64,000 nucleotides of DNA from a virus, in IMG/VR virus record IMGVR_UViG_3300027733_000032; one strand, written 5' to 3'. The notes under the pieces are model-generated. The model was not told the DNA's origin, searched no databases, and was given only the letters and a program-made list of their open reading frames with translations. Numbering within the stretch: the stretch's first letter is position 1; each line of letters opens with the position of its first letter. Positions 1-28,718 of this stretch are shown one piece after another. The position numbers and the translations under genes are program-made.

Positions 1-2
1 AA

Positions 3-101
3 CTGCGTTCATCCCTCTCTGTTGAGGAGAGTGCGGAGATTGTGTTCGGTGACCGTGCTGGCGCAATCATGGATGCGATGCGAGTGGACTCACTGTCGTG
101 A
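3..101 (+). CDS. C-terminal fragment of an upstream gene (window edge); possibly the AAA+/MoxR-type partner of the vWA protein
   Basis: Open frame LRSSLSVEESAEIVFGDRAGAIMDAMRVDSLS*; its TGA (99-101) overlaps the GTG start at 98. The function is inferred only from context. Confidence 0.45.
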   Translation: MRSSLSVEESAEIVFGDRAGAIMDAMRVDSLS

Positions 102-1588
102 GCGTGAAGGTCAAGCATGATGTATCACGCCGACCTCTCCCTGAAGTATTGGGTCGTGGTGATGTAGACAAGGGCGGTGCGTGGACTGTAGAAGCCTGCC
201 CACCTACCCGTGGACTACCCGTGACCTCTGTTGAGGGTCGCTTTATGAATGTACCTATGTCGGGCGACGCTCTGTCTACGGTCATTCGTATTCATGAGAT
301 GGTTCATGCGAAGGTGTCCCCTAAGGACTTGAGTCCGTTCATTGCTAGGGGTTTCGCAACTGAGGAGTCACTGCGCTCTGTTGAGGAGATGCGAGTGAAC
401 TACCTCGCTACTCACTTGGGTTATGACATGAGTGTTCTTAGTGATGGTGGCGAGAAAGAGTTAGGCGAACGCCTCGTTGCTATGGGTGACTGGAACAATG
501 CTGTTCAGTTCGCTATCGCCACTGTTGGTACGGGCGGTCATAAGAAGTTCATCGCTGGAGTGCGCCGACATAACAAGGTATGGGGCAGTGTGCTTGCCGA
601 CATTAGTAAGCGAGCGATGAGAGAGATAAAGAAAGTGCCACGGAACAAACTCACTAGCACCTCTCTCACTGCTGATGGTCTGATAGAAGGCTTTGGTTAT
701 ACCGAAAGTATTGCTTCTTGGATTGACCGCCTATGCGATAAGCAACCTGATGACAAGAGTGATAAGAGTGACAGTACTGATAGTTCTGATAAGGACGACT
801 CTGATGCTGATACCTCTGATACTGATGAGTCAAAGAGAGATGAGAAGGGCGAGATAGATAAGGCTCTTGCTGAGTCTCGTAAAGAGACTCTCGTTGATAG
901 GACTCCTATCCCCTCTTGGTTCCCTCTTAAGGTGGAACGGTTGCCTATGCCTGAAGTATTGAGTGGGTCACTAGGTAAGAAGCGTGTCGCATCCAATAGT
1001 GGCAAACATCCTCGTCGCCTTCATCGTTACTTGACTGACCCTCAGAAGCGTGTCTTTGATAAGACGGTTCGTGGTCAAGGTGGCATCGTTGTCATTGACA
1101 CTAGTGGCTCTATGCGTCTTGACCGTGATGATGTAATGGGTATCGTTATGGCATCGCCTGGATGTACTGTGCTGTCTTATAGTGTCCCCTCATTCGGCAT
1201 TGACGATAATGGCGAGGCTATTGAGACCAATGCTTATGTCCTTGCTAGTCGTGGTCGTATGGTGGACGAGATGCCTGAGTTCGGCTCTGCTAATGCTGTA
1301 GACCTACCTGTGCTGAAGTGGGCAGTGAGTGAACGACGAAGTAGTCGCACTCCTGTCGTGTGGGTATGTGATGGGTATGTGACTGGTCATGGTGATGTGG
1401 CTCACGAGACACTGACGCTTCAGGCGGTTGAGTATTGCTTGGCTCACGGTATCTCTATCGTGCCTGATGCTGAGTCGGCTGTGAAGTACCTGACCGAGTT
1501 GAGCAATGGTATGCGACCTGCTAAGTCATTCCCTCATATCATGAAACGGGCATACGAGTTGGCGACTGGAGATAGGTTGGTCGCATAG
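98..1588 (+). CDS. Metallopeptidase-like (HExxH) plus vWA domain protein (CobT/DUF2201-like architecture)
   Basis: N-terminal IHEMVH motif, Asp/Ser-rich acidic linker, MIDAS motif VVIDTSGS and downstream VCDG. Confidence 0.8.
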   Translation: MSVKVKHDVSRRPLPEVLGRGDVDKGGAWTVEACPPTRGLPVTSVEGRFMNVPMSGDALSTVIRIHEMVHAKVSPKDLSPFIARGFATEESLRSVEEMRVNYLATHLGYDMSVLSDGGEKELGERLVAMGDWNNAVQFAIATVGTGGHKKFIAGVRRHNKVWGSVLADISKRAMREIKKVPRNKLTSTSLTADGLIEGFGYTESIASWIDRLCDKQPDDKSDKSDSTDSSDKDDSDADTSDTDESKRDEKGEIDKALAESRKETLVDRTPIPSWFPLKVERLPMPEVLSGSLGKKRVASNSGKHPRRLHRYLTDPQKRVFDKTVRGQGGIVVIDTSGSMRLDRDDVMGIVMASPGCTVLSYSVPSFGIDDNGEAIETNAYVLASRGRMVDEMPEFGSANAVDLPVLKWAVSERRSSRTPVVWVCDGYVTGHGDVAHETLTLQAVEYCLAHGISIVPDAESAVKYLTELSNGMRPAKSFPHIMKRAYELATGDRLVA

Positions 1589-1614
1589 TTCTTGCCTTCC
1601 CTATAAGGTAAGTG

Positions 1615-1668
1615 GAGAGTAGTCCTCTAGTCATTGGTGGTCAGTGACTTGAGTGGCTACTCTCTTTT
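1615..1668 (+). terminator. Intrinsic terminator: long imperfect hairpin followed by T4
   Basis: GAGAGTAGTC-CTC-T-AGTCATTG (1615-1636), loop GTGGT, CAGTGACT-T-GAG-T-GGCTACTCTC (1642-1664), then TTTT; 27 nt after the vWA stop. Confidence 0.7.
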
Positions 1669-1736
1669 GTATATATCAAGTGAGTAAGTAGTGGCGTGTA
1701 TGTAATGAGTGAGTGATATGTGATGATGATGATATA

Positions 1737-1780
1737 GGTAGGTAGGTAGGTAGGTAGGTAGGTAGGTAGGTAGGTAGGTA
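1737..1780 (+). repeat. (GGTA)11 microsatellite within a C-poor low-complexity tract
   Basis: 11 perfect GGTA units at 1737-1780, followed by GTA/GTAT repeats to about 1837. Confidence 0.95.
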
Positions 1781-1943
1781 GTAGTGATGTATGTATGTAT
1801 GTGTTAGATGAGTAGTGGTAGTAGTAGTAGTGGTAGTACCCATAGCAATACCCGTAGGCACTTTTTTTACTAATGATGAAACGATGATGAGAACGAAGTG
1901 ATGATGGGGTAATGATGATGTACCTATATGTATACGAGTATGA

Positions 1944-1976
1944 GGGTATAGGGGTATAGGGGTAGGGGTATAGGGG
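1944..1976 (+). other. Putative G-quadruplex-forming sequence
   Basis: GGG-TATA-GGGG-TATA-GGGG-TA-GGGG-TATA-GGGG: five G-tracts with 2-4 nt loops. Confidence 0.7.
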
Positions 1977-1984
1977 TACTACTT

Positions 1985-2209
1985 ATATACCCGTGATATA
2001 CCCGTGAGCATTGCGACGACTCAATGACTTAGCGATGACGACTTAGTGATGACGACTCAATGACTTGACTGTCAATGATGGTAATGATGACGAGTCAATG
2101 ATGATGACGATATGACGATGACTCAATGCTATTGACGATGACTCAATGACGATGACGATGATGTGATGCTTTGTAATACTTTGTGATACTCAGTAATACT
2201 TTGTGATAC
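1985..2209 (+). repeat. Nested short direct repeats (iteron-like)
   Basis: ATATACCCGTG x2 in tandem (1985-2006); GACTCAATG at 2018, 2054, 2120 and 2140 with a variant at 2092; GTAATACTTTGTGATAC at 2173 and 2193. Confidence 0.85.
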
Positions 2210-2281
2210 CTGATAATGAATGTGATGATGAATGGGGCAACGCTGTCAATGTGTACGACATATGTAATGCCGTGTCTTGCT

Positions 2282-2561
2282 TGTGGATAAGGTGTGGATA
2301 AGGGTGTGGATAAACTTTTTTGTCATCCTCTACGACTGTCTATCTTAGGATAAGCAAGGGTTATACACAGGTTTATCAACAGGTATGTGGATAAGTAAGG
2401 GTTATCAACAGGTTGATTAAGGTGGTTATCAACAGGGTTATCAACAGGGTTGGGGATAAAGTAGGGTAAAAAGGGGTTATCAACAAGGGTGTGTATAAAG
2501 TCGGGGCTTCGTCCACATCCGTAGGCACTTATCCACAGGGTTATCAACAGACTTATCCACA
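2282..2561. promoter_or_regulatory. Cluster of about 15 DnaA-box-like 9-mers
   Basis: Perfect TTATCCACA/TGTGGATAA at 2282, 2293, 2305, 2386, 2529 and 2553; TTATACACA at 2361 and 2490 (rc); TTATCAACA at 2373, 2402, 2426, 2438, 2477 and 2541; TGGGGATAA at 2451. Confidence 0.75.
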
Positions 2562-2637
2562 GAACATATGTTCGGGGAACAGGTGTTCGTACTTTGGAAG
2601 GTCAAAAGCGAACAGGTGTTCGTGCGAACAAGTGTTC
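2562..2637. promoter_or_regulatory. Four tandem LexA/SOS-box-like palindromes (GAAC-N4-GTTC)
   Basis: GAACATATGTTC at 2562, GAACAGGTGTTC at 2577 and 2610, GAACAAGTGTTC at 2626; the last two read CGAAC-N4-GTTCG, matching the Gram-positive/actinobacterial SOS box core. Confidence 0.65.
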
Positions 2638-2845
2638 GTATCCATGACCCCAGAAGCCCCGAACTTTTTGAGAATATAGATATTGGCTGGGCGGGCATAC
2701 AAACTATTTTTAATGTCGGCTTACTCTGGATAGATTTATCCAAACGGGGTGGGGGCAGCATCTTCTATGTTCTTCAACCTTTGACGGTGGTGGAAAGCAA
2801 TTCGCTCGAAGCGTCTCGACACGTGCTTGCTCCGTAATGGGAGTA

Positions 2846-3091
2846 TTACTGCTTTGTAGTACTAAGCGCTTTGTGCCAGGTTTTGGTGAACACCCAGATA
2901 AGCGAGAGTAATCCTGCCTGTCTCCAGGTGATGTCATTCTCAATTGCGTTGGCGTGGTCAAGAATTCGCGATGTTGACCAGATAGCCGTCTGGGTCACTA
3001 AGACTGTTAGCCCCCATAGGAAGATTAAAGCCATGGTAGTCCCTGTACTGGAGTTTGATTCATTGAGGTTGTTTAGTTGCCGGTTTGACAA
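2846..3091 (-). CDS. Small membrane protein
   Basis: 81 aa with two hydrophobic segments; overlaps the end of the upstream HA/HTH gene. Confidence 0.55.
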   Translation of the reverse strand: MSNRQLNNLNESNSSTGTTMALIFLWGLTVLVTQTAIWSTSRILDHANAIENDITWRQAGLLSLIWVFTKTWHKALSTTKQ

Positions 3092-3440
3092 TTTGGTGAA
3101 TCCTTTGTCTGGAGAGGTTATAACGGTCGGCGATTTGTGTGAGCGATTGGCCGTCTTCGCTGAGATTCTTGATTTCCGCGTTTCTGGAGGTATTAGGTTT
3201 GGGACCTGGCCGCAGAGGGCCCCAGGACCATCCCGGAATACTGTTTAAAATATTAATGCGGTCTTCGCCCAATTTGTTGTTTTTGTAACGTTGTCGAATA
3301 TATCCGACCCACGTGCCGAGTTGCACCGACTTGCCGTCGACATGTTCTTCGTGATGTGCAGGAACCGTGGCGGAACCTTCGCGACTGATGTATTGTTGGA
3401 GGGCGGCCTGGTAGATATTGAACCGGGTGGTGTTGTTCAT
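3060..3440 (-). CDS. Helicase-associated (HA) domain plus C-terminal HTH protein
   Basis: VP...LGTWVGYIRQRY...L...RI..L..IPGWSW is the HA signature; SLTQIADRYNLSRQRIHQIV is a sigma-r4-like HTH. Confidence 0.8.
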   Translation of the reverse strand: MNNTTRFNIYQAALQQYISREGSATVPAHHEEHVDGKSVQLGTWVGYIRQRYKNNKLGEDRINILNSIPGWSWGPLRPGPKPNTSRNAEIKNLSEDGQSLTQIADRYNLSRQRIHQIVKPATKQPQ

Positions 3441-3520
3441 AAGGGAAACACTAGTAGTTAAAGGGTTCTCGTAGTGGATATCACGTGCAACAATCGACGG
3501 TGGTGGAAAGGGACTAAATC

Positions 3521-3967
3521 ATGTTCGATGATGATGATAATGACGCGTTTGAGGACATAGCCAGGTTTGCTGAGTTCACCGCGAAGATGAGCGGCGATGA
3601 ACGTAAGACCTTGTCCGAGTTGTTGAGTTCCCTGGCTGGAGAACTAGTCGAGCAGATGTCGCCGCCGAAGGATTTGCTGTTCGTAGGGTCTGATGGCATC
3701 CGCCTAGTGAAGTGTCTCCACTACCCTCGTGAGGTACTGGGTGAAGATGGCCCCGTTATTTTGCCCTCGGCTTCAGAATTTGTGATTCTTGGTGCGCTTT
3801 CAGATGAATTTATCCAAAGAGATGCTGATGAGATTGCGGGGCTTTTTGATGACCTTGAAGAACGCGACGATGCTTGGCACCACCTGATGACCGAGTACGC
3901 TTTGACCATCTCGGAGAAATTCGACGACAATCCACCGGAAGACTATTCGAACTTTTTTAAGGAGTAA
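3521..3967 (+). CDS. Acidic hypothetical protein
   Basis: 148 aa, very Asp/Glu-rich; AAAGGGA SD-like sequence upstream of the ATG. Confidence 0.7.
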   Translation: MFDDDDNDAFEDIARFAEFTAKMSGDERKTLSELLSSLAGELVEQMSPPKDLLFVGSDGIRLVKCLHYPREVLGEDGPVILPSASEFVILGALSDEFIQRDADEIAGLFDDLEERDDAWHHLMTEYALTISEKFDDNPPEDYSNFFKE

Positions 3968-3970
3968 CAC

Positions 3971-4543
3971 GTGCACACATCCTGGAATGCAGCCGCTGAG
4001 GTGGCCGTTAAAGAAATCTTCGCAGCGGAGGTGCAGCCCTGCAGTGTCGAAGCGCTTAGGAGCCATCTGGATGGCCTTATCGAGAAGTATTTACCGACCG
4101 GCGGGGACGTGGCCGCGGGCGGCAGCCAGAGAATGCGTCAATCCTGGGTGAAACTGGGTCAACTGGCCCGGTCCTTAGGAGCCACGAGTGATTATTTGAA
4201 CTTTTCCCCGGTATTCGGCGAAGACCACGGTCGTGTTCTCGACATCGTTGTGCGCAAACAGCGCGATTACGGCCACGAGAATATTGCACGCTTTGGCCGC
4301 ATGGGACTTTTGGTCCGGGTGCACGACAAGATTGCACGTCTGGAGAATCTTCTGGGTGCCGGTCATCTACCGAATCATGAATCCATTGAGGATAACGTTC
4401 TCGATGTGATTGGTTATTCAATCGTCGCCGCGATGTGGGAGGAAGGTTCCTTCCTTCTCGCGTTGCAACCTTCGACGGTGGCGGAAAGCGAACCAGATTC
4501 GGGTCTAAATGCCGGAATGTTAGGTTTTTTGCGACTTGCTTAA
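3971..4543 (+). CDS. DUF1599 / nucleotide-modification-associated domain 1 (Nmad1)-like protein
   Basis: RKQRDYG...GLLVRVHDKIARLENL...ESIEDNVLDVIGYSI pattern. Confidence 0.7.
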   Translation: MHTSWNAAAEVAVKEIFAAEVQPCSVEALRSHLDGLIEKYLPTGGDVAAGGSQRMRQSWVKLGQLARSLGATSDYLNFSPVFGEDHGRVLDIVVRKQRDYGHENIARFGRMGLLVRVHDKIARLENLLGAGHLPNHESIEDNVLDVIGYSIVAAMWEEGSFLLALQPSTVAESEPDSGLNAGMLGFLRLA

Positions 4544-4939
4544 CATCTTCGCGATGCTTTAGTGCCGGATTGGCCTGGTAAAATACTAAAGGTAGGGAGC
4601 CTGGAGTCGACACCACCTGCTGATAGTCAACCCCAGGCATCAACCCGGGCGCCGAGAGAAGGAAAGGGGAAACCTCTCTCGACTAAACGAAACTTAGTAC
4701 CCCTAATGTGCCCTCTGTTGTTAAATATTTATTTTAATTTTATGTGCGCTGAGCAGGGCCTTTTTTGAAAATTTTTCTTTTACTTGCTTTCGCGACTTGA
4801 CGTGGTGCTCTACAGTCAGTACCTTTCCGAGTCACAACTTGAAGGGCGCCCGCGCTTTGAGGAAACTTTAGGCCAACCGCCGAAAGTTCTCTTTGTGGTG
4901 CGCAAAAACATAGCGATTCAAAAAAAAGGTTCCCCCGGA

Positions 4940-4958
4940 CCCCCTCCAAAGGAGGGGG
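4940..4958. other. GC-rich hairpin in the intergenic region upstream of the replication genes
   Basis: CCCCCTCC-AAA-GGAGGGGG: 8-bp perfect stem, preceded by an A-tract and GGTTCCCCCGGAC. Confidence 0.5.
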
Positions 4959-5092
4959 GCATCATTACTCTTTTCTTCAATGCAATAATTTCATTGAGAA
5001 ATGAATATACCTTTCTAGGGAATCTCTATTGAAGAGAACTTTGAACCTTTGCAAAAGTTGTACATTTTTTTATCTATCGAAAGGGGTTTCGA

Positions 5093-5506
5093 ATGGTCTA
5101 TATACTGACTCTTGATATGGAAGAGATACCACACGAACCAAAGAAGCGCGGCGGACAGTCTGGTCCCAAGAAACAGAAGCAGGGTCAGATTCGCAAGGGA
5201 TTGACGGTGGCGGAAAGCGACGTTGACCAGGTCTATCAGTACTGGTGTTCGGTCATGCGGCCTGGGCGCAAGCGAGTTCCTTCTCTGGACCACAAGCGAG
5301 AATTGGTTGTACGGGCGGCGATTGCTGATTACGGCCTCGAAGACTGCATGAGAGCCATCGACGGCTGTGCGGCATCTGACTGGCACATGGGCCGCAATCC
5401 AGGGAACAAACGCTACGACGACTTAGAGTTAATCTTCCGCAACCAGAAGCAAGTCGATATGTTTTTGGCGCGAGTCGAAAATAAAAGGAAAACTGGTGAT
5501 TTCTGA
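5093..5506 (+). CDS. Phage replication initiator/replisome organiser-like protein (conserved C-terminal domain)
   Basis: V.QYW...R...L...AIDGC..SDWHMG.N....YDDLELIFR pattern; directly precedes a G39P-like gene. Confidence 0.62.
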   Translation: MVYILTLDMEEIPHEPKKRGGQSGPKKQKQGQIRKGLTVAESDVDQVYQYWCSVMRPGRKRVPSLDHKRELVVRAAIADYGLEDCMRAIDGCAASDWHMGRNPGNKRYDDLELIFRNQKQVDMFLARVENKRKTGDF

Positions 5507-5964
5507 TGACAAAAGTTGAATTGGAAGATTTCGTCCGGGAAGTGTTTGCTTCCTTTAACCAGACGCTGTATGAATCTGACCGTGAAGTTATCTTGCGGGC
5601 ATGGTGGGGTCTACTTAAAGATTTAGAAATTGCTTTGGTTCGAGATAGATTTATCCAAATGGCTGTGGTGTTGAAGACGATGCCAACTCCTGGTGCGGTA
5701 CGCAGAGCGGTGGTGGAAGAGTCTTTGGAAACAACACCCCCTTCACCTCAGCAGGCATGGGCGGCATTGCGTAAGATGTCTGATGACGTGAATCGTGGGA
5801 CTCATCAAGTGATGGACATCCACGAAGTCTTCCAGAATGCGATTAAGGTTCTGGGGGACATAGCGTTCACCCTGTCTACAAACGGGGACCGAGAATATTT
5901 TATGAACGTTTATACAGAGCAGTTAAATTTATACATGGTAGATGTATATAAGGTGAGGGTATGA
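5506..5964 (+). CDS. Helicase loader/inhibitor, SPP1 G39P-like
   Basis: MTKVELEDFVREVFASF...RAWWGLLKDL...MPTPG resembles the G39P N-terminal domain; TGATG coupling with the upstream gene. Confidence 0.65.
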   Translation: MTKVELEDFVREVFASFNQTLYESDREVILRAWWGLLKDLEIALVRDRFIQMAVVLKTMPTPGAVRRAVVEESLETTPPSPQQAWAALRKMSDDVNRGTHQVMDIHEVFQNAIKVLGDIAFTLSTNGDREYFMNVYTEQLNLYMVDVYKVRV

Positions 5965-6128
5965 AGAAGAACACGGGTCGACCGCCAAAGATGCCAACAG
6001 GTGAACGCACGACAATCACAATGAAAATCAATGCTGATGTCAAGCGGAAAATTATTACCCAAGCGCAGGCTTTTGACATGACCATTACAGAGTATGTCTG
6101 CATGCTTGTTGAGAGAGATAGTTCCTAG
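5961..6128 (+). CDS. Ribbon-helix-helix DNA-binding protein (55 aa, not in the ORF track)
   Basis: MKKNTGRPPKMPTGERTTITMKINADVKRKIITQAQAFDMTITEYVCMLVERDSS*; GRPP hook plus RHH pattern; overlaps both neighbours. Confidence 0.75.
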   Translation: MKKNTGRPPKMPTGERTTITMKINADVKRKIITQAQAFDMTITEYVCMLVERDSS

Positions 6129-6940
6129 TGGGTGTACAGGTATTGGAGTTTCGATGTAGTGGTGACTCTGCCTCGGTAAAAGAACTTGTCAAAAATACCA
6201 AGACTCCCAACTCTTTGGAATCTATTCCCAGTGATTCCGTCAACCTAAAATTCATTGACGAATCACTATTACGTTTTGCTAGTGCATGGGGTCGCCCGTA
6301 TGGCTTTATTCAGGAGCAGTCTGGGGCAATTATTCAGAACCTCTTTCCTATCAAGCGTAATGAAGCAGAGCAAATTTCTTCATCTTCATTAGCAACATTA
6401 GAGATGCATACGGAGACTGCTTTTCACCCATGGCGACCTCAACACATTGTGCTCTTATGTATACGAGGCGATGATAATGCTGGGACAACGTATGCAACAC
6501 TTGAGGACATTTTGCTTAATCTCGACAGGGAAACAATAGAAGTTCTTCATGAGCCATTGTTTACGACGACGCTTGATAAAAGTTTTCAGAATCCCGACCA
6601 GTCGGATGCCGTGGTAGCAACTCCGATTTTATTCAATAATGCATCATCAATGACTTACGACAGGGTATTAATGAAACCTAAGACGGATTATGCAGGAACT
6701 GCTCTAAAAGAATTGTCAAAAGCAATTGAAGAATCGAAGCAGGTTTTTAAACTTTCTGCTGGACAGGTTGCGATTATTGAGAATTGGAAAGTAGTTCATG
6801 GTCGCACGCCATTTGTTCCGCGCTACGACGGAACTGACAGATGGCTTAAGCGCGTTATGGTTCGGAACTCCATGCCACCAGCACGAGATGTTCAAAATGT
6901 TGGGGATGATGGAACTTATATGGTTACAATGAGTTTCTAA
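6128..6940 (+). CDS. TauD/TfdA-family Fe(II)/2OG dioxygenase (clavaminate synthase/AsnO-like)
   Basis: MHTETAFH (H-x-E), LLCIRGD, ENWKVVHGRT, RWLKRV. Confidence 0.85.
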   Translation: MGVQVLEFRCSGDSASVKELVKNTKTPNSLESIPSDSVNLKFIDESLLRFASAWGRPYGFIQEQSGAIIQNLFPIKRNEAEQISSSSLATLEMHTETAFHPWRPQHIVLLCIRGDDNAGTTYATLEDILLNLDRETIEVLHEPLFTTTLDKSFQNPDQSDAVVATPILFNNASSMTYDRVLMKPKTDYAGTALKELSKAIEESKQVFKLSAGQVAIIENWKVVHGRTPFVPRYDGTDRWLKRVMVRNSMPPARDVQNVGDDGTYMVTMSF

Positions 6941-7744: not shown

Positions 7745-10700
7745 TTAAATGGATTTTTTGTTTTTCCCAATTTGTTCTCTAGTTTGACTCATGTTTTCAT
7801 TTTGTGAACGTTCTCGGCCCAATTGGCTAGGGCTATTCCATTTTCTGTAATCGTTGCGTGTTAGACCTGCTTCAACCCTAATCTCCCGAACTGTAGTCTT
7901 GCCAATGCCAAGTTCTCGTGCTATTTCTGTGTCAACTTTACCCAATTTATGAAGTGCAATAATTTTTTTGTTTCGTGCCACCACCGACGCTGGTATTCCT
8001 GCCTTTCCCCATTTCCCCGTTGCGGCCTGCCCTGCTTTTAAATTTGATGGAATATTATTATTTATTCGATGATTACGGATTGCGCCCCTAGTAACGCCGA
8101 GTTTTTCTGCTATTTGAATATCACTCATCCCGTAAGCAAGCATTTCAAATATCTGTTGTATCTGTTCGTCAGTTAGGCGATTATTGCCTGTTGGGGGAAT
8201 GTTGTTTTTTATTCGAAATTGACGAACCGCACCCATTGTTACGCCAAGTTTTTTCATTATTTCACTATTTCCTGCCCCATCAGCAAGCATTTCAAGCATC
8301 TGTTGTTTTTGTTCGTCAGTTAGGCGAGTACGTGAACTCATTCCACTAATAATTTTGTTTTTATCTGGTCGTGAACTCAAATTTTCTAAAGTGGATTTGA
8401 GGACAAATTCATAACGGTCCTTAGATGCTTCTTTCTCTGCTCGTAGTAATAGTTCTGGTGAAACCTCGGTCAACTTAATTGAACGAGTTGACGTGCTGCG
8501 AACGCCTTCCCTACTTGTGTTTTCAGCGTCTAGAAGTGCGATGAGTTCTCTGGTGGAGCCATCAAATGCGTGGTTAAATTCGCCGAACCTAATCTTTCCT
8601 AGGAGGTCTACAACGCCTTGAAGTTCTTCACTGGTTTCCCTTTCGGGGTACGTTTGCTTAAATATTTGAGGAATTCCATACTCTCCTAGCCAATAGAGTG
8701 CCATAGCATCGCGCTCTTCTTCTGTAAGGTCGAGTAAGTCGCTATCTAAGATAAAAGATGTGATGGCCATGGCGTTCGCCCACTCGCCATGTCTATCAAA
8801 ACCACGACCAGTACCAAAGTGGCCCAGAATGTCGTGCTCTATATCCGGGATTGCACTGCCCCTTGCTGGATTTAGCAGAAGACCCACATATTGCTGGACC
8901 CAAGAGCCGTCAAGGTTTTTGTATTCTTGATATTTCTCAGATAAATCATGACCTTGTAATTTTCTTATAATATCCCTAAATTGTTTTTCGAATTTTTCCC
9001 TGGCTTCCTCAGTCGCGCGGTGGTCTCGCCCTACACGGAATTGATTTGTATAGGAAGTGTCTTTTGGGCTTTTAATTTTATACTTTAATTGAGGAAGGAT
9101 GCTTGCCAAATACTCTACGCTTGGTGCTTCAATTTCTGACCAATCCCTATTTGGGAGAATTGAACTTATGGTTGGATGTGGTTGAGCAAAAATGACGGGT
9201 ATACCGTTGGACGAAACTTTAATTGAAATTGACTTAATCGCTTCTTTGGTTTTTTCGTCTATTGGCGTAGTCGGGTTGTCAGACAAAAGATTTTTAATTT
9301 TATCTATTGTTTTTTGCCTTGTAGCAAATGTTGAATTATTCTCGTCCTCATAAATTTGAAGAAGTGCTTGTCTTGCTGCGTCTTTTTCTGTTTCATTAAG
9401 TTCTAGTTCGTCAAGAATCTCCTCAAAGTCTCGCCCGTCTAAAATGGGATAAGTATCGGTACGTGAACTCATTCCACGACGACCACGTGCTTCTTCTGTT
9501 TCGCGAAGTATGCGGTCAATAGGGTCTTCATTTGTAACACGAGGACGACTCTGTTCTCTTGCCGTGCGGTCTGGCTGACCACCTCTGCCTCTGGCTTGTC
9601 GTTGAGGGCTAGAAACAGGTCCGTATAATTCGTCCCACTCACGCATTTGGGCGTCGACTGCATTTTGGTTATCAGGACTTGGGTCCGTGTAGAGTTTTAT
9701 GCCAGAAATACCGCGAACTCGCACTAATTGAGGTCCAATGAGTTCCGTTCTGATTATTCGGTCATCTTCATCTGCGTAAACAAGAGTTGTCCCTGGCTGA
9801 AGTTTTATCTTCTCATCTGGCGCAAGTTCAATTGGACGGAACCGTTCTTTCTCAGAATCTGTCATATCGCGTCGTCGCGAACTCATGCCACCAACACTAG
9901 TTAAATTAGTATAAATATCATTATCTAGTGATTCTCTTAGAATTTTTTGTCTTGCGTCCTTACTTTGTTTTTTAATTTCACCATCTTCATCAAATCGGAA
10001 GAAGTGTCCTTGTATTTCCCAAACTAATTTTGGTCGACCAAAGCCTTCGTATAGTTCTACGACTGTTTCAATTTGGCTAGGCGTAAGTTTTTCTATTTTT
10101 GCATCAAGGTTTAGGTGTGCTCCTTCTCCTTGTATTGTGACGCGCGCTGTATCCAGGCGGAGAATGCCGTCTTTGAAAGAGTTAATATAATTATGTTCGT
10201 CGCCATGCCAAAATACTGGATATATTTCTCCATCCGGATAAATCCAGGCACCACGATATGGAACTTTCACGAATTCTCGGGCCGAGATGAAATCTCTATT
10301 CATCGGTCTTTTATTTGCGCCTTTTATACGCCCTGTGTTTTCAAAAAGTTTTCTTAGTCTGAGCATTTCTCTTGCCTGATTTAAAACAAATTCTTTTTTT
10401 TCATCATCTAAGGCAAATTTGTCAATGGCATCAATTATTCGTTCAAGTTCTGGGGAATCATAATTTAGTGGGTTTTCCCTTATCTTGTCTCGTTTATACA
10501 TAAAAACTTTATTCAAATCATTAAGTCCTGCTTGACTCAATAAATTGTTGCCTTTTTTATCTTTTAATCTAATTTCAGAATCAGACAATTCAAGATTCAT
10601 GTCAAGAATGTCGAATAATGGACCCCACTTTTCTTTAAATTGTCTATTGGTTATTTTGTCTAATAATTTTTCTTGACGAGTAGTTTCTTCTTTAATAAAA

Positions 10701-12718
10701 TTAATTCGACTAGTGCTACTCAAGCCAAGTGGTGTTGGTATAAGTTTTCCAGGACGTGCTGGCTTAAAGCCCGCTTGACCAGAGCCACGACTTAAAGGTT
10801 CTCCGAATTTACCAATTTCCTTAGGTATGGATACGCCTTTTGAAAGTTTGAGCATTTCGTCATAGATTTCTTGGCGTTTTTTAACGTTCTTCTCATCACG
10901 ATACTTTTCATAAAGAGGTGTAAGTTTATTTTTTAATCGATAAGAAGATGGCGTATGGAATTGGATTTCATAAAAGAATCCGTCAGGATGGTCCACCATT
11001 ACGTTAATACCCTTGTAGGGGTCTCCTGACGTCCAGTAATTTGTCACCGATGCATTGTGCCCCTTCTTGGCCAAGGCAGAGATGACACCAAGAACGTCGT
11101 TTGTATATTTATTCACATCATCTGATTCAAATGTATAACGCAATGGGTCGTTCATTGACGTAATTGAGTCAGTGAGGTCTCCATCGAACAGGTTTTGCAA
11201 GCGTTGAGCCTTCAGGGCAAGTGATTCGACTGGTTTTTGTCTGTTTTTAAGACCACGCAAGTAAAGACTTGAGCCCTTTTTGTCGGCGAGACCCTTCATC
11301 ATTTGTGTTAGTTCAGGTTCATGTTGCGAAACAAACTTCATGAATTCTTGCGCTTCCTTTACGGCACGCTGAGAAGCAATATTTGATTTACCTACAGAAC
11401 GCAAGCCAGCGATAATTGGTGAACTTGGCAATGATGGACGCATCCATGGCGTTGCGTCTTGAACTAGACCATCATTATCAGCATCAATTGCGTCTGGGTC
11501 ATAAATTTGTACGGAGTTAATGGCACGTAGGGCAGGACCAAGTGCTTTTTCTGTCATGTACTTGTCGGCAATTCGCTTAATTGTATTTTTAATTGACTGT
11601 CTACGTGATTCAAAACCATCACCAGCCAACTCCGCAATTTTCTCAATCGGGTGCATGGATATTATTGGCTTCTTTTTATCGCGATAAGAAATTTCTTCTT
11701 CAATATCCTTGAGCCACTCCAGGTATTGCTCTGCATCTTCTCGCGATTTAAACTTGCCAAGATGTTCCCCATTTTTTGAAAAATAGGAAGAAGCGTTAGA
11801 TTGCTCTATTGTCTGCCCAAATTTTGTTATTAGCGGAACAATAATAAACATTCCTGCCTCGTCGCCAGAACCGTCAATTATGATTGGCTCAATAAGTGCC
11901 AAACTTCCATTTTGTTTTTCAATTGGCTCCCTATTGTCGATATCTAGATTCCCGGGAATAAAAGGTTTTACGGGTGGGTCGCCACCATATGACGGCGCAT
12001 TGGTAATTTCATTTAGTTTTTCTTTATTTGGAGAAAATGCTTGTTCTAATGGTTCCGTACTGACCATGCGGTCTTTTTCTGATGATGTATCAGAAAAAAC
12101 TTTTGGTGCATCAGGATTATTTGCAACTTCTTGAACGCTCGGCCCAAGTGTCTTTGAACGTGTTTTCTTGGAGGCATTAGCCGCCCTTTGTGTGTTTGCT
12201 ACGAATTGCTTACCTGTCTTGTCTCCCGCTAGTTTTTTGGCAATTGTCGCTCGTCTCTGAGAGGGGGTGAGTCGTTTCCATGCTGCCGCTGGGAGATAGC
12301 GGGTCATCCCACCTTTTCTTCGTGCAGGCTTGCCGTCCGAGGTCGTCCATCGTTCGCTTGTCCATTTTTTCAAAGAACGCTGGGTCCTACCAGGCTTGCC
12401 TCTATAGCCTCCACCAGCACGACGGTATGCTTGCGCTACGAGTTGTGCTTTTCGAGCAGACCACTGGCCCGGTCGACCGCCATCCGAACCAGCCATGATT
12501 CGCCGTTTGATTGTTTCGCGTAATTGTGGACGAGTGTATGGGATTTGTTTAATACCAAAACTGGGCTCGGTATCCCCTGCGTCATCTAGGAAATCTTTAG
12601 TTGCCTTTTCAACCCATCCAGGGGTGCTTCCATAGGCGCTGCGAGAAGAAGGGACCCTAAAGTTGCTTTGGCTTAATCGAGGCCGACCATTTCTATCCGT
12701 ATGTTCAACTTCTTGCAT
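7745..12718 (-). CDS. Large modular (polyvalent) protein: DUF5872-like basic domain, RelA/SpoT-type nucleotidyltransferase domain, zincin-like segment and C-terminal HTH repeats
   Basis: ATG at 12718 has a GGAG SD. Motifs: GQWSARKAQL; RQK..SL..K, DPLRYT, YKGIN, EIQFHT; EHDILGHFGTGRGFDRHGE; RLTDEQ..HTH x2. Confidence 0.85.
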   Translation of the reverse strand: MQEVEHTDRNGRPRLSQSNFRVPSSRSAYGSTPGWVEKATKDFLDDAGDTEPSFGIKQIPYTRPQLRETIKRRIMAGSDGGRPGQWSARKAQLVAQAYRRAGGGYRGKPGRTQRSLKKWTSERWTTSDGKPARRKGGMTRYLPAAAWKRLTPSQRRATIAKKLAGDKTGKQFVANTQRAANASKKTRSKTLGPSVQEVANNPDAPKVFSDTSSEKDRMVSTEPLEQAFSPNKEKLNEITNAPSYGGDPPVKPFIPGNLDIDNREPIEKQNGSLALIEPIIIDGSGDEAGMFIIVPLITKFGQTIEQSNASSYFSKNGEHLGKFKSREDAEQYLEWLKDIEEEISYRDKKKPIISMHPIEKIAELAGDGFESRRQSIKNTIKRIADKYMTEKALGPALRAINSVQIYDPDAIDADNDGLVQDATPWMRPSLPSSPIIAGLRSVGKSNIASQRAVKEAQEFMKFVSQHEPELTQMMKGLADKKGSSLYLRGLKNRQKPVESLALKAQRLQNLFDGDLTDSITSMNDPLRYTFESDDVNKYTNDVLGVISALAKKGHNASVTNYWTSGDPYKGINVMVDHPDGFFYEIQFHTPSSYRLKNKLTPLYEKYRDEKNVKKRQEIYDEMLKLSKGVSIPKEIGKFGEPLSRGSGQAGFKPARPGKLIPTPLGLSSTSRINFIKEETTRQEKLLDKITNRQFKEKWGPLFDILDMNLELSDSEIRLKDKKGNNLLSQAGLNDLNKVFMYKRDKIRENPLNYDSPELERIIDAIDKFALDDEKKEFVLNQAREMLRLRKLFENTGRIKGANKRPMNRDFISAREFVKVPYRGAWIYPDGEIYPVFWHGDEHNYINSFKDGILRLDTARVTIQGEGAHLNLDAKIEKLTPSQIETVVELYEGFGRPKLVWEIQGHFFRFDEDGEIKKQSKDARQKILRESLDNDIYTNLTSVGGMSSRRRDMTDSEKERFRPIELAPDEKIKLQPGTTLVYADEDDRIIRTELIGPQLVRVRGISGIKLYTDPSPDNQNAVDAQMREWDELYGPVSSPQRQARGRGGQPDRTAREQSRPRVTNEDPIDRILRETEEARGRRGMSSRTDTYPILDGRDFEEILDELELNETEKDAARQALLQIYEDENNSTFATRQKTIDKIKNLLSDNPTTPIDEKTKEAIKSISIKVSSNGIPVIFAQPHPTISSILPNRDWSEIEAPSVEYLASILPQLKYKIKSPKDTSYTNQFRVGRDHRATEEAREKFEKQFRDIIRKLQGHDLSEKYQEYKNLDGSWVQQYVGLLLNPARGSAIPDIEHDILGHFGTGRGFDRHGEWANAMAITSFILDSDLLDLTEEERDAMALYWLGEYGIPQIFKQTYPERETSEELQGVVDLLGKIRFGEFNHAFDGSTRELIALLDAENTSREGVRSTSTRSIKLTEVSPELLLRAEKEASKDRYEFVLKSTLENLSSRPDKNKIISGMSSRTRLTDEQKQQMLEMLADGAGNSEIMKKLGVTMGAVRQFRIKNNIPPTGNNRLTDEQIQQIFEMLAYGMSDIQIAEKLGVTRGAIRNHRINNNIPSNLKAGQAATGKWGKAGIPASVVARNKKIIALHKLGKVDTEIARELGIGKTTVREIRVEAGLTRNDYRKWNSPSQLGRERSQNENMSQTREQIGKNKKSI
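8328..9477 (-). repeat. Exact 19-nt direct repeat encoding the GMSSRT linker
   Basis: GTACGTGAACTCATTCCAC at 8328-8346 and 9459-9477. Confidence 0.9.
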
Positions 12719-12740
12719 AAATTCTCCCAAGTGAGCGGGA

Positions 12741-27187: not shown

Positions 27188-27639
27188 CTCCTGATAGGAT
27201 ATCTTTCATGACAAAAACTACCGACAGGTTCTGGAGCAAAGTAGATATCGGTTCTCGTGAGGAGTGCTGGCCATGGCGTGCATTTACCCATAAAGGATAT
27301 GGCATATATCGGGATGATGGGAAAAAAGTTAGGGCGCATCGATATTCTTTCTTTATTCACAACGGCTTTTATCCGCCAGTCGTGATGCACGCCTGCGATA
27401 ATCCGCCTTGCGTCAATCCAGCGCACCTACTGGCGGGAACACCGGCTTTGAACACCAGAGACATGATGGCCAAAGGTAGACATGTTGAACCCAACTCCAG
27501 CAAAACACACTGCCCGACGGGTCACGAATACACAGAAACAAACACTTACGTGTATCCATCGGGCGCGCGTAAATGTCGCACCTGTCGCAACGAACAAAGT
27601 CGTATACATCGTGCAAAGAAAGTTAAGGAAAATACTTGA
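27184..27639 (+). CDS. Free-standing HNH homing endonuclease
   Basis: RFWSKV...ECWPW...GYG...AHR...VMHACDNPPCVNPAHL..N; C-terminal HCPTGH..CRTC; overlaps both neighbours. Confidence 0.9.
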   Translation: MTPDRISFMTKTTDRFWSKVDIGSREECWPWRAFTHKGYGIYRDDGKKVRAHRYSFFIHNGFYPPVVMHACDNPPCVNPAHLLAGTPALNTRDMMAKGRHVEPNSSKTHCPTGHEYTETNTYVYPSGARKCRTCRNEQSRIHRAKKVKENT

Positions 27640-28718
27640 GATTCCACATCGTTTCCCTACCACACACGAACACCACCGAAGACTTCACCGCCTGTGCTTA
27701 CACAGAGAAGGTGCGCAAGTTCTGTATCATGATGAAAAATCTCGGACACACCGTATTTCTCTATGGCGGCGAGTTCAATGAAGCACCCTGCGATGAACAC
27801 ATCGTCTGCATTACCGAGGAGCAACGACTAAAGGCCGTTGGTAACAACCACTACTCTGCGGCGTCATTTGACTGGAACCTGCCTCATTGGGTTGAGTTCA
27901 ACGGCAACGTCATCAAGGGCATTCAAGAACGCCTAGAACATAAAGATTTCATCTGCCTCATAACTGGATATGCCTCTAAGCCAATTGCTGATGCTTTTCC
28001 CAACGAACTGAGCGTGGAGTTTGGGATTGGATATGGCGGGTGGTTTGCTAACTACAAGGTGTTTGAGTCCTATGCATGGATGCATGCCTGTTACGGGTCT
28101 AAAGTTACTGACCCTCACACTCTTGACGGCAAATTCTTTGACACCGTTATCCCAAGTTATATCGACGTTGACGACTTCGCCCTACAAGAAGAACCCGACG
28201 ACTACTACCTATACATAGGTCGACTGACGGAGCGTAAGGGTTATCAGGTTGCTGTAGACGTATGCAAGGCACTTGGTAAGCGTTTAGTGATTGCTGGTCA
28301 AGGAACTCCACCTTCTTACGGTGAATATGTGGGCGTAGTTGGGACTGAAGAGCGTTCAAAACTCATGGGTGGGGCAATCGCTACCTTCACTCCAACCATC
28401 TATGTCGAACCTTTTGGCACCGTTGCTATAGAAGCAATGGCATGTGGTTCTCCTGTGATTTCTACCGATTGGGGAGCATTTACGGAGACTGTCATTGATG
28501 GCGTCACTGGATTCAGGTGTCATACTTTGCAAGAATTTATGGATGCTGCGGAGGCGGCAAAACACCTTGACCGCAAGGCAATAAGCCAGTACTCCAAGGA
28601 CCGCTACGGCCTCGATACGGTGGGGCTTATGTATGAGAAGTATTTTACGCGGCTACAAACCCTCTGGGGTAAGGGTTGGTATGAACTCAATAGTAGCCCT
28701 CCAGTTGAAGAAGACTAA
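27636..28718 (+). CDS. GT-B (GT4-like) glycosyltransferase
   Basis: YIGRLTERKG, LVIAG, EPFGTVAIEAMACGSPVISTDWGAFTE. Confidence 0.9.
   Translation: MRFHIVSLPHTNTTEDFTACAYTEKVRKFCIMMKNLGHTVFLYGGEFNEAPCDEHIVCITEEQRLKAVGNNHYSAASFDWNLPHWVEFNGNVIKGIQERLEHKDFICLITGYASKPIADAFPNELSVEFGIGYGGWFANYKVFESYAWMHACYGSKVTDPHTLDGKFFDTVIPSYIDVDDFALQEEPDDYYLYIGRLTERKGYQVAVDVCKALGKRLVIAGQGTPPSYGEYVGVVGTEERSKLMGGAIATFTPTIYVEPFGTVAIEAMACGSPVISTDWGAFTETVIDGVTGFRCHTLQEFMDAAEAAKHLDRKAISQYSKDRYGLDTVGLMYEKYFTRLQTLWGKGWYELNSSPPVEED

What the first reader, a model, noticed from the sequence alone, without database searches (positions are those of the whole stretch)
1..2800. Palindrome-purged DNA ending sharply at a DnaA/LexA-box array: candidate two-step DNA-entry (T5-like) system
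Seen (manual scan): no GGCC, CCGG, TCGA, CGCG, AATT, TGCA or ACGT in 1-2798. All seven appear between 2799 and about 3490 and recur afterwards; naive expectation is about 1 per 256 nt each. The 1.5-kb gene also lacks A4/T4 runs. The site-poor stretch ends with a terminator, a repeat block and about 15 DnaA plus 4 LexA boxes. Known: coliphage T5 first injects a pre-early segment that ends in a non-coding, repeat-rich injection-stop region, and leading phage DNA is under strong selection against restriction sites. Inference: this is the end of a first-injected segment, and host DNA-binding proteins may pause or ratchet entry at the array.
Basis: partly seen in the sequence, partly recalled or inferred. 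Interest (0 to 1): 0.85.

Follow-up and report, generated by a model that had tools for sequence, protein, structure and literature searches.

The report
Restriction-site-free early arm of a phage
An uncultured freshwater phage of actinobacteria keeps a 35-kb block of early genes almost free of about a dozen restriction-enzyme target words, and the purge stops within a few bases beside a dense cluster of host DnaA and LexA binding sites; this is the sequence footprint expected if that block enters the cell first, as in coliphage T5, but DNA entry itself has not been measured.

Summary
GGCC, CCGG, TCGA, CGCG, AATT, TGCA and ACGT are absent from window 1-2798 (about 62 expected, Poisson P 1.5e-27) and begin at 2799. 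Stitching identical metagenome contigs shows these 2.8 kb are the tip of a 34.8-kb purged arm (window -31,999 to 2,798; 41 sites against about 768 expected). The 12 most depleted of all 136 four-mer classes there are palindromes. The arm also holds all 29 early-promoter motifs and all 33 perfect DnaA boxes found in 102 kb. The cliff recurs in relatives, is bridged by independent assemblies, and is under ongoing selection (46 sites in a 10%-diverged relative; 437 expected from random substitutions). Site density falls steadily toward the array. The layout copies T5's first-step-transfer region, scaled about 3.4-fold, yet T5 itself shows no such purge and no T5 protein homologue was found. I read the arm as first-entering DNA of a fixed-end genome (some staged entry about 0.6; T5-like pause at the array about 0.4). 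Physical ends, a terminal repeat, the direction of entry and any braking role for DnaA or LexA remain unshown. The scan noted the same boundary from the neighbouring window (e1-5857633).

The parts
1..2798 (.). Right-hand 2.8 kb of a 34.8-kb arm (window -31,999 to 2,798) purged of restriction-type palindromes
   Evidence: 0 of 7 motifs here. The whole arm has 41 sites against about 768 expected, and 8 palindromes have O/E at or below 0.06.
98..1588 (+). Last gene of the rightward early operon: a 496-aa protein with an HExxH motif and a VWA-like DxSGS motif, paired with an upstream AAA_5 (MoxR/CobS-like) ATPase gene
   Evidence: ORF. No Pfam, NCBIfam or PDB hit. phrog_33218 at E 1.5e-41. The Atlas places it in a phage-wide family of about 490-510-aa proteins with only a weak VWA link. 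The AAA_5 neighbour is shown.
1614..1668 (+). Intrinsic-terminator-like hairpin plus U-run that ends the rightward early operon
   Evidence: RNA fold -40.3 kcal/mol, z = -5.97, 0 of 200 shuffles as stable.
1670..2280 (.). C-poor (11% C) block of simple repeats: (TAGG)12 at 1735-1781, (AGT)n, GGGGTATA units, GACTCAATGAC units and CTTTGTRATA units. Its length varies among relatives.
   Evidence: Repeat-number differences appear table 4. Short-read assemblies break here.
2282..2561 (.). DnaA-box array: three tandem reverse boxes, then about 12 boxes at 12-nt spacing, mostly forward (TTATCCACA, TTATCAACA, TTATACACA)
   Evidence: Order and orientation are conserved box for box in relative L011.
2562..2637 (.). 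Four LexA-type SOS boxes (GAAC-N4-GTTC) directly abutting the last DnaA box
   Evidence: 9 such boxes in 102 kb, 8 inside the arm, 1.5 expected by chance. Conserved in L011 and L006. No sigma-70-like promoter nearby.
2784..2797 (+). 14-mer ACGGTGGTGGAAAG ending exactly at the cliff. Only two other copies exist in 102 kb, at -31,477 and 3,497.
   Evidence: It also sits at the cliff in L011. Function unknown.
2799..3490 (.). Onset of normal or high site density (44 sites/kb at 3.2-4.2 kb): the start of the unpurged genome
3060..3440 (-). First recognisable gene beyond the cliff: a 126-aa protein with a helicase-associated (HA) domain and an HTH resembling sigma-70 region 4
   Evidence: Pfam PF03457 at E 2.4e-12, plus HTH_7 and Sigma70_r4; NCBIfam.

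Best explanation
The 34.8-kb arm is the part of a fixed-end linear phage genome that is in the host cytoplasm, unprotected, before phage anti-restriction functions take effect. In other words, DNA delivery is staged.

My preferred form is T5-like. The far end of the arm (near window -32 kb) enters first and the early promoters fire. Transfer then pauses in or just beyond the non-coding repeat and DnaA/LexA-box array, with the limit of exposure at about 2,745-2,798. The rest of the genome follows only after early gene products, and perhaps co-injected head proteins, have neutralised most host nucleases. Nucleases recognising AGCT and GATC are evidently not neutralised, because those words are absent genome-wide.

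Shown: the sequence signature, its limits, its conservation, ongoing selection, its coincidence with the early promoter class, and the T5-like layout. Inferred: that exposure is limited by staged entry, which end leads, where transfer pauses, and any part played by DnaA or LexA. I put some form of staged or polar entry at about 0.6 and this T5-like form at about 0.4.
For: 1. The signature is specific to restriction-type words. The 12 most depleted of 136 four-mer classes in the arm are all palindromes: AGCT, GATC, ACGT, GGCC, CGCG, TCGA, TGCA and CCGG at O/E 0-0.06, AATT 0.2, CATG 0.34, TTAA 0.40, GCGC 0.49. ATAT, TATA, CTAG and GTAC are much less affected (O/E 0.58-0.77). GCNGC, GGNCC, CCNGG, TTTAAA and GGTACC are also purged.

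2. The limits are sharp and coherent. There are 0 sites in the last 5.5 kb before 2798, then 44/kb. The purge includes the non-coding array (0 against 19.3 expected).

3. The arm coincides with the early class. All 29 CAACTA-N12-16-CCGATA promoter motifs, all 33 perfect DnaA boxes and 8 of 9 LexA boxes in 102 kb lie inside it.

4. Selection is ongoing. Relative G001 differs at 10.0% of 30,276 aligned columns yet has 46 sites, where random placement of the same substitutions gives 437 +/- 20.

5. The cliff is conserved and is not chimeric. L011 has 0 sites in 1,555 nt and then 108 in 2,860 nt. Contigs from runs of 2022 and 2025 and two JGI contigs bridge it.

6. The layout matches T5 (AY543070): end, leftward operon, divergent promoters, rightward operon, terminator, about 1 kb of non-coding repeats with DnaA boxes, then opposite-strand genes (compared).

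7. There is experimental precedent. T5-like phages are restricted only through sites in the first-step-transfer DNA (PMC10644984), and T7-like phages only through sites in the first-injected region (PMC12455610). That paper notes such regional avoidance presupposes fixed ends. Davison (bioRxiv 10.1101/866236) documents conserved DnaA boxes in the T5 iss.
Against: No physical end has been demonstrated. The shared contig end at -31,999 is a graph fork between two structural variants, and only assembled contigs were available, not reads.

Site density inside the arm falls monotonically toward the array (Spearman rho 0.73, P 7e-7). A simple stop-at-the-array model does not predict this; it needs an added argument, such as more gene turnover or a sacrificial buffer at the far end.

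T5 itself shows no global palindrome purge in its first-step-transfer DNA, so the analogy rests on layout and on experiments, not on a shared sequence signature.

No A1, A2, Dmp or known anti-restriction family was found among 47 early proteins.

At 34.8 kb (roughly a fifth of a record of at least 173 kb), the arm is 3.4 times the size of T5's segment.
Confidence: 0.4

Rival explanations
1. Staged or slow polar entry, but with the array side leading. The physical end lies at about 2,798, so the DnaA/LexA array is within the first 500 bp to enter, where host proteins could ratchet the DNA in or shield the tip. The rest of the arm follows progressively, helped by the relay of leftward early promoters as in T7. 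Exposure time, and therefore the purge, declines with distance from the tip.
For: The monotonic gradient reaches zero at the array, while control palindromes show none, and relative G001 shows the same gradient. A cliff is trivial if it is a DNA end. 24 of 29 early promoters point away from the array, which is co-directional with inward movement in this model. The array contains no promoter. In Staphylococcus myovirus 812 the first-ejected end is the right end of the long terminal repeat and carries clustered G-tracts (PMC12886913); GGGGTGGGGG and GGTGGTGG lie within 50 bp of the cliff here. This last point is a weak resemblance only.
Against: Every assembly reads through 2,798 with no sign of an end, although assemblies cannot exclude one. 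T5 has the same promoter orientation, yet its far end leads, so orientation does not discriminate. The model needs a second special point at -32 kb to explain the step there.
Confidence: 0.2
2. There is no staged entry and the whole genome enters at once. Only the early arm must stay physically intact in the first minutes, because it has to be transcribed to make anti-restriction and repair functions. Cuts elsewhere are tolerated or resealed, so selection against sites is concentrated on the arm.
For: The purge coincides exactly with the early promoter class. The remainder shows only mild depletion (O/E 0.6-0.9) apart from AGCT and GATC.
Against: The purge runs through 1.2 kb of non-coding array beyond the operon's terminator, ending 1.1 kb past the last early gene. 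The change from 0 to 44 sites/kb occurs within a few bases, which is hard to obtain from a graded need. A double-strand cut anywhere in a single infecting genome is normally lethal. The experimental precedents tie regional sensitivity to staged injection (PMC10644984, PMC12455610).
Confidence: 0.12
3. Virion DNA outside the arm is protected by a covalent modification, while the arm is left unmodified so that host RNA polymerase, DnaA and LexA can read it. The arm therefore has to rely on site avoidance.
For: Genes suggestive of nucleotide or DNA modification lie just right of the cliff and elsewhere: a weak, sub-threshold DUF1599 hit at 3971-4543 (E 0.0016, 19.2 bits against a cutoff of 25), a 2OG/Fe dioxygenase at 6128-6940 and a glycosyltransferase. 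The arm is dense in host-protein binding sites.
Against: I know of no modification system that spares a contiguous 35-kb stretch with a base-precise edge. Non-canonical bases are incorporated genome-wide during replication. AGCT and GATC are purged genome-wide, so the remainder is not generally immune. No modification data exist for this phage.
Confidence: 0.08
4. The purge is a relic or a by-product. Either the arm was acquired from a lineage with different composition, or its codon and base composition happens to disfavour these words, and the cliff is just a recombination joint.
For: GC is about 0.50 in the arm and about 0.43-0.47 beyond it. The far edge coincides with a synteny breakpoint and a structural-variant fork.
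Against: Markov and dinucleotide nulls still expect 90-180 copies of each word in the arm. Only palindromes are affected. Since divergence from G001, about 90% of the expected new sites have been removed (46 against 437). The pattern is shared by relatives down to 65% protein identity (L009).
Confidence: 0.03

Closest known systems
First-step-transfer (FST) region and injection stop signal (iss) of coliphage T5 and other Tequintavirus/Epseptimavirus phages
   Same: Small early genes sit in two inversely oriented operons. The rightward operon ends in a terminator, followed by about 1-1.7 kb of non-coding DNA packed with direct and inverted repeats and DnaA boxes, and then by opposite-strand genes (bioRxiv 10.1101/866236; PMC10644984). 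In T5-like phages only restriction sites inside this segment sensitise the phage.
   Different: This arm is 34.8 kb against about 9.6 kb. The host is an actinobacterium and, by the scan's notes, the phage has a contractile tail. No A1, A2 or Dmp relative and no DNA or protein similarity were found. The DnaA boxes form a phased 12-nt array of about 16 plus four LexA boxes, instead of four pairs inside inverted repeats. T5's FST shows no global palindrome purge (14.2 against 14.4 six-mer palindromes per kb), whereas here a dozen words are nearly eliminated and a gradient is present. A terminal repeat and a transfer pause are not shown here.
Transcription-dependent genome entry of T7-like phages (Autographiviridae), with restriction sensitivity set by the early-injected region
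   Same: Only recognition motifs in the first-injected region determine sensitivity to a host R-M system (PMC12455610). The early genes are read by host RNA polymerase. Protection of later DNA is attributed to early proteins such as Ocr.
   Different: No Ocr-like or other annotated anti-restriction family was detected among the 47 early proteins scanned; a phage RNA polymerase was not searched for. The early promoters here are a distinct class (CAACTA-N14-CCGATA), many with DnaA boxes. The arm is about four to five times longer than T7's early region. The direction of entry is unknown.
Long terminal repeats carrying early or host-takeover genes in large Firmicute myoviruses (Herelleviridae, e.g. 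Staphylococcus phage 812/K; SPO1 by my own recollection)
   Same: A large myovirus with a block of many small early genes at a genome end. In phage 812 the right end of the 8.5-kb repeat lies in the tail channel and carries G-tracts (PMC12886913). Genome-wide absence of GATC is known for Staphylococcus phage K (my own knowledge, not checked here).
   Different: A terminal repeat is not demonstrated here. K-mer depth is 1.3-3 times higher on the arm side in three runs, but that is not decisive. No sequence relationship was found. A regional, graded purge has not been described for these phages as far as my two literature searches show.
oriC-type DnaA-box clusters and datA-like DnaA sinks
   Same: High-affinity perfect boxes flank same-orientation near-consensus boxes at about one helical turn (12 nt), as in bacterial origins.
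   Different: No adjacent initiator or replication gene. No clear unwinding element was tested. LexA boxes abut the array. DnaA boxes also sit at most early promoters across the arm. An origin or sink role would be compatible with, and would not explain, the restriction-site cliff.

Membership tests
T5-type two-step DNA transfer (FST + iss) | A discrete leading segment at a fixed genome end, duplicated as a long terminal repeat | tested here: inconclusive
   Four assemblies end at -31,999, but this is a k-1 graph fork between two structural variants. K-mer depth on the arm side is 1.34x, 1.5x and about 3x, which is not decisive. No raw reads were available.
T5-type two-step DNA transfer (FST + iss) | Two inversely oriented pre-early operons, then a terminator, a long non-coding repeat region with DnaA boxes at the inner border, and opposite-strand genes beyond | tested here: met
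   T5 annotation compared with the locus. DnaA boxes in the T5 iss at 9,437-9,510 (bioRxiv 10.1101/866236).
T5-type two-step DNA transfer (FST + iss) | Restriction sites matter only in the leading segment (site-poor segment, site-rich remainder) | tested here: met
   Sequence side only: 41 against about 768 expected sites in the arm, and 22/kb beyond it. In vivo insensitivity of the remainder is not testable.
T5-type two-step DNA transfer (FST + iss) | Pre-early proteins A1 and A2 (and Dmp) encoded in the segment | tested here: not met
   No PHROG family annotated A1, A2 or Dmp among 47 early proteins of 90 aa or more. No megablast or tblastn match to any cultured phage. Proteins under 90 aa were not scanned.
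T5-type two-step DNA transfer (FST + iss) | Physical arrest of transfer, relieved by early protein synthesis (shear experiment) | not testable with these tools
   Needs an isolate.
T7-type transcription-driven entry | Early promoters at the leading end, co-directional with entry, and a phage RNA polymerase for the rest | tested here: inconclusive
   24 of 29 early promoters point away from the array, which is co-directional only if the array side leads. A phage RNA polymerase was not searched for.
DnaA-dependent replication origin (oriC-like) | A cluster of phased DnaA boxes next to an AT-rich unwinding element | tested here: inconclusive
   The box cluster is met. AT-rich patches at about 2,660-2,720 are seen by eye only. 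The cumulative GC skew jump at the array is dominated by the C-poor repeat block.
LexA-regulated (SOS) promoter | Operator overlapping a promoter of a downstream gene | tested here: not met
   No sigma-70-like promoter in 1500-3700 (0 found, 4.2 expected). No early-class promoter motif lies in the array.

The most novel reading that the evidence does not exclude
A dedicated array of host DnaA and LexA binding sites acts as the gate of genome delivery, either as a brake that holds the rest of the chromosome outside or as a ratchet and shield at the entering tip. Delivery would then be timed by host replication and SOS proteins. This would be a solution reached independently of T5, whose DnaA-box stop signal has been unexplained for over 50 years. 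The graded purge would then be a sequence-only readout of the order and timing of DNA entry, usable on uncultured phages.
Probability: 0.2. Interest if true: 0.85.

Novelty: new variant of a known kind. Interest (0 to 1): 0.68.

Why it matters
Experiments on T5-like and T7-like phages show that only first-injected DNA has to avoid restriction sites, but the effect has been seen there one site at a time. Here it has shaped 35 kb of an uncultured phage so strongly that the limits, and possibly the order, of early exposure can be read from sequence alone, with no isolate.

If that reading is right, three things follow:

- It gives a computational way to find staged DNA entry and fixed genome ends in metagenomic phages.
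- It lists which host nucleases the phage can neutralise (about ten motifs) and which it cannot (AGCT, GATC).
- It offers an evolutionarily independent case of DnaA boxes sitting at the border of the early-exposed DNA, which bears on the unsolved T5 injection-stop mechanism.

Tried and rejected
- Whole-genome tools: no genome is held for this window.
- Cultured relatives: megablast of 1-6000 and tblastn of the 496-aa protein against 50,697 phage records found nothing.
- IMG/VR relatives: the baseplate protein found none, and the 496-aa protein found only the 39-kb fragment G001.
- Read-level mapping of termini: all 24 runs are kept as assembled contigs, so read starts and true depth could not be measured. 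The per-contig k-mer depths are reported as a weak hint only.
- Contig ends as evidence for a physical terminus at -31,999: rejected after finding the exact k-1 overlap and the two alternative neighbours.
- Contig breaks at about 1,763 as an end: rejected, because they fall in the 47-nt (TAGG)12 repeat, which is longer than the assembler's word.
- T5 as a calibration for the direction of a purge gradient: not possible, since T5's FST has no global purge.
- Function of the 496-aa protein: Pfam, NCBIfam and PDB sequence searches were all empty. The Atlas gives only a phage family with a weak VWA link.
- Locating the helicase/SSB flank in the source record through the scan's sequence index: nothing found.
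- Anti-restriction genes in the arm: none recognised.
Full report
**1. What the window is**

The window lies in an uncultured tailed phage. Its minus strand from 7.7 kb onward carries tail-fibre, collagen-like and head-morphogenesis genes. Contigs that continue it upstream carry WhiB genes, which points to an actinobacterial host. All holders are freshwater or lake metagenomes. No host genome is held, and no cultured phage resembles it at DNA or protein level. A neighbouring-window note (e1-5857633) shows that the window is record positions 32,001-96,000. Other notes place features out to at least 173 kb.

**2. Checking the observation**

- The rate to the right is 22.1 sites per kb, so 61.8 are expected and P(0) = 1.5e-27.
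- No other 500-nt window in the 64 kb is empty.
- Dinucleotide-preserving shuffles expect 32.1 sites in the gene and 19.3 in the non-coding 1589-2798. None of 500 shuffles reaches zero, so the C-poor composition of the repeat block is not the cause.
- Two things were missed. AGCT and GATC are absent from the entire window and from every related locus. And the stretch is only the tip of something far larger.

**3. True extent of the purge**

Exact-protein look-ups recovered contigs that overlap the window and each other with zero mismatches (checks). This gave 102 kb of continuous sequence, from window -38,349 to 64,000.

Density of the seven words along that sequence:

| Region (window coordinates) | Sites per kb |
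|---|---|
| left of -32.0 kb | 7-24 |
| -32 to -18 kb | about 2.5 |
| -17.8 to +2.8 kb | 0.34 |
| just past 2798 | 44 |

The purged arm therefore spans -31,999 to 2,798 (34.8 kb), with 41 sites against about 768 expected.

Among all 136 reverse-complement classes of four-mers, the 12 with the lowest observed/expected ratio in the arm are all palindromes. Eight are at 0.06 or below. The best non-palindrome is at 0.53. GCNGC, GGNCC, CCNGG, TTTAAA and GGTACC are purged too. This is the pattern expected from selection by many Type II restriction enzymes, and from nothing else I can think of.

**4. Is it real biology?**

- Relative L011 crosses the array and shows the same cliff: 0 sites in 1,555 nt, then 108 in 2,860 nt.
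- The 91%-identical IMG/VR fragment G001 shows the same purge and gradient over more than 30 kb.
- Contigs from independent runs of 2022 and 2025 bridge position 2798, as do two JGI contigs. The junction is therefore not a chimera.
- Selection is current. G001 differs from the window's lineage at 10.0% of 30,276 aligned columns. Re-dealing the same substitutions at random, preserving base and codon phase, creates 437 +/- 20 sites, whereas G001 has 46. That disposes of a relic or horizontal-transfer explanation.

**5. What the arm is**

It carries about 90 small genes, arranged as:

- a leftward series from about -7.5 kb to the far edge;
- a rightward operon from about -7.2 kb to 1,588, ending with an AAA_5 ATPase gene and the 496-aa HExxH/VWA-like gene;
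- a terminator;
- the 1.2-kb non-coding region.

All 29 copies of the early-promoter motif CAACTA-N12-16-CCGATA lie inside the arm, as do all 33 perfect TTATCCACA boxes and 8 of 9 GAAC-N4-GTTC boxes in the 102 kb. This partly verifies notes e1-5857631 and e1-5857632. The purge, the early transcription class and the host-protein binding sites therefore share the same borders.

**6. The array**

Its order is: hairpin; a C-poor block of simple repeats that varies in length among relatives; three reverse DnaA boxes; about 12 boxes at 12-nt phasing; then four LexA boxes starting one base after the last DnaA box. The boxes are conserved one for one in L011. No sigma-70-like promoter occurs in 1500-3700 (0 found, 4.2 expected by chance), and no early-class motif lies there. 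The boxes therefore have no evident transcriptional target.

The limit of selection lies between the last DnaA-like box (2736) and a 14-mer, ACGGTGGTGGAAAG, that ends at 2797. In L011 two sites already appear about 40 nt before that motif. The 14-mer has only two other copies in 102 kb, at -31,477 and 3,497. I cannot explain it.

**7. The far edge**

The source record, two JGI contigs and a Logan contig all end at exactly -31,999. Homology with G001 also begins within 3 nt of that base. I first took this for a physical terminus, but the evidence does not support that:

- In one Logan assembly the contig on the far side overlaps by exactly 30 nt, which is k-1 and marks a graph fork.
- Different assemblies place two different neighbours beyond that base. 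One is a run of small genes plus WhiB. The other is an intact 665-aa HARP-SNF2 helicase gene whose first 47 or so codons lie inside the arm.

The shared end is therefore an assembly fork between co-occurring variants. It remains notable that the purge step, the synteny breakpoint and the variant breakpoint fall on the same base, in one variant inside a continuous gene. That is what one would expect of a DNA-level boundary such as a repeat edge or terminus, but it is not proof.

Per-contig k-mer depth is higher on the arm side in three runs (1.34x, 1.5x, about 3x). This is compatible with a terminal repeat, but equally with several strains sharing the arm.

**8. The gradient**

Inside the arm, site density rises with distance from the array (Spearman rho 0.73, P 7e-7). 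Control palindromes show no trend (rho -0.02). G001 behaves the same way. Three readings are possible:

- The array side enters first and exposure time falls with distance.
- The far end enters first, but cuts there are less harmful, for example because that DNA acts as a buffer or a second repeat copy can restore it.
- The far part has more gene turnover. Identity to G001 is lower and more broken between -32 and -23 kb, so new sites there have had less time to be purged.

I cannot choose among these.

**9. Comparison with known systems**

The T5 record shows the same order of parts: left end, leftward pre-early operon, divergent promoters, rightward operon, terminator, about 1 kb of non-coding iss with DnaA boxes, end of the repeat, then minus-strand genes. 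Davison's comparison of 25 T5-like phages documents conserved DnaA boxes in the iss and proposes, without a test, that membrane-bound DnaA stops injection (bioRxiv 10.1101/866236).

T5-like phages are restricted only through sites in the first-step-transfer DNA (PMC10644984). T7-like phages are restricted only through sites in the first-injected region, and those authors note this cannot apply to headful packagers (PMC12455610). The regional purge here is therefore itself an argument for fixed ends and staged entry.

Membership in the T5 family is not supported. No A1, A2, Dmp or other similarity was found. T5's own segment shows no global palindrome purge: 14.2 against 14.4 six-mer palindromes per kb, with four-mers not depleted. 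What is seen here works like T5 but is far more extreme, and it sits in an unrelated actinophage.

Staphylococcus phage 812 offers the opposite geometry: the right end of the terminal repeat is ejected first and is rich in G-tracts (PMC12886913). The G-runs just before the cliff are a weak lead toward that geometry.

**10. Verdict**

The best explanation is that the arm is the DNA exposed first in a staged delivery of a fixed-end genome. I put that at about 0.6 overall. Within it, a T5-like pause at the array is about 0.4 and an array-side leading end about 0.2. The other rivals are lower:

- Whole-genome entry with only the arm needing to stay intact: 0.12. It is weakened because the purge runs through non-coding DNA 1.1 kb past the last early gene.
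- A modification-free arm: 0.08.
- Relic or composition effect: 0.03.

The role of DnaA and LexA in gating entry is an attractive, untested inference. The array may instead, or also, be an origin or a protein sink (notes e1-5857644, e1-5857650). [quoted passage not shown] The scan's note of an ArdC-like domain in a head cargo protein (e1-5857694) is a candidate that I did not test.

Noticed in passing
window 1-64000 and all related loci (G001, L006-L011, stitched 102 kb): AGCT and GATC are completely absent genome-wide (about 150 expected each in the window alone). The other purged words are missing only from the early arm. This implies two tiers of nuclease pressure, or that the phage itself makes nucleases for these two words.
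   Followed up: partly
window 2784-2797 and 3497-3510; also -31,477 upstream; L011:1591 and 2289: The 14-mer ACGGTGGTGGAAAG occurs only three times in 102 kb, all on the plus strand. One copy ends exactly at the purge cliff, and the motif is conserved there in a relative. Each copy could begin a mini-ORF reading M-T-V-V-E-S-N. Function unknown.
   Followed up: partly
upstream of window, at -31,999 (L026:13,935; L033:938; G001:4117): Two co-occurring structural variants meet at one base. In one, an intact 665-aa HARP-SNF2 helicase gene starts about 143 nt inside the purged arm. In the other, that gene is cut to 49 codons and is followed by small genes plus WhiB.
   Followed up: partly
upstream early arm, L021:14200-14523 (about window -23 kb): A protein of about 107 aa resembling a potassium channel (Pfam Ion_trans_2; phrog_14690 at E 2.6e-28) lies among the early micro-genes. 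It recalls the miniature K+ channels of chloroviruses.
   Followed up: no
window 1949-1976 and 1735-1781: GGGGTATAGGGGTAGGGGTATAGGGG is a G-quadruplex-type motif, and (TAGG)12 lies nearby, both within an 11%-C repeat block. Unit numbers differ among relatives and between runs.
   Followed up: no
window 2529-2563: In several metagenomes, short high-depth contigs from other DNA (25-117x) match this 35-nt DnaA-box stretch with 2-4 differences and then run on unlike it. They may come from the host's own origin region or from other phages.
   Followed up: no
window 6128-6940 (+), 3971-4543 (+), 27636-28718 (+), 31398-32873 (-): Just beyond the cliff lie a clavaminate-synthase-like Fe(II)/2OG dioxygenase, a weak sub-threshold DUF1599 (nucleotide-modification-associated) hit, a glycosyltransferase and a tryptophan-halogenase-like flavoenzyme. 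These may be DNA- or metabolite-modifying functions.
   Followed up: no
window 7745-12730 (-): A 1,661-aa protein combines a MuF-like head-morphogenesis domain with C-terminal HTH/D5-like DNA-binding regions. This is the make-up of a packaged polyvalent protein.
   Followed up: no
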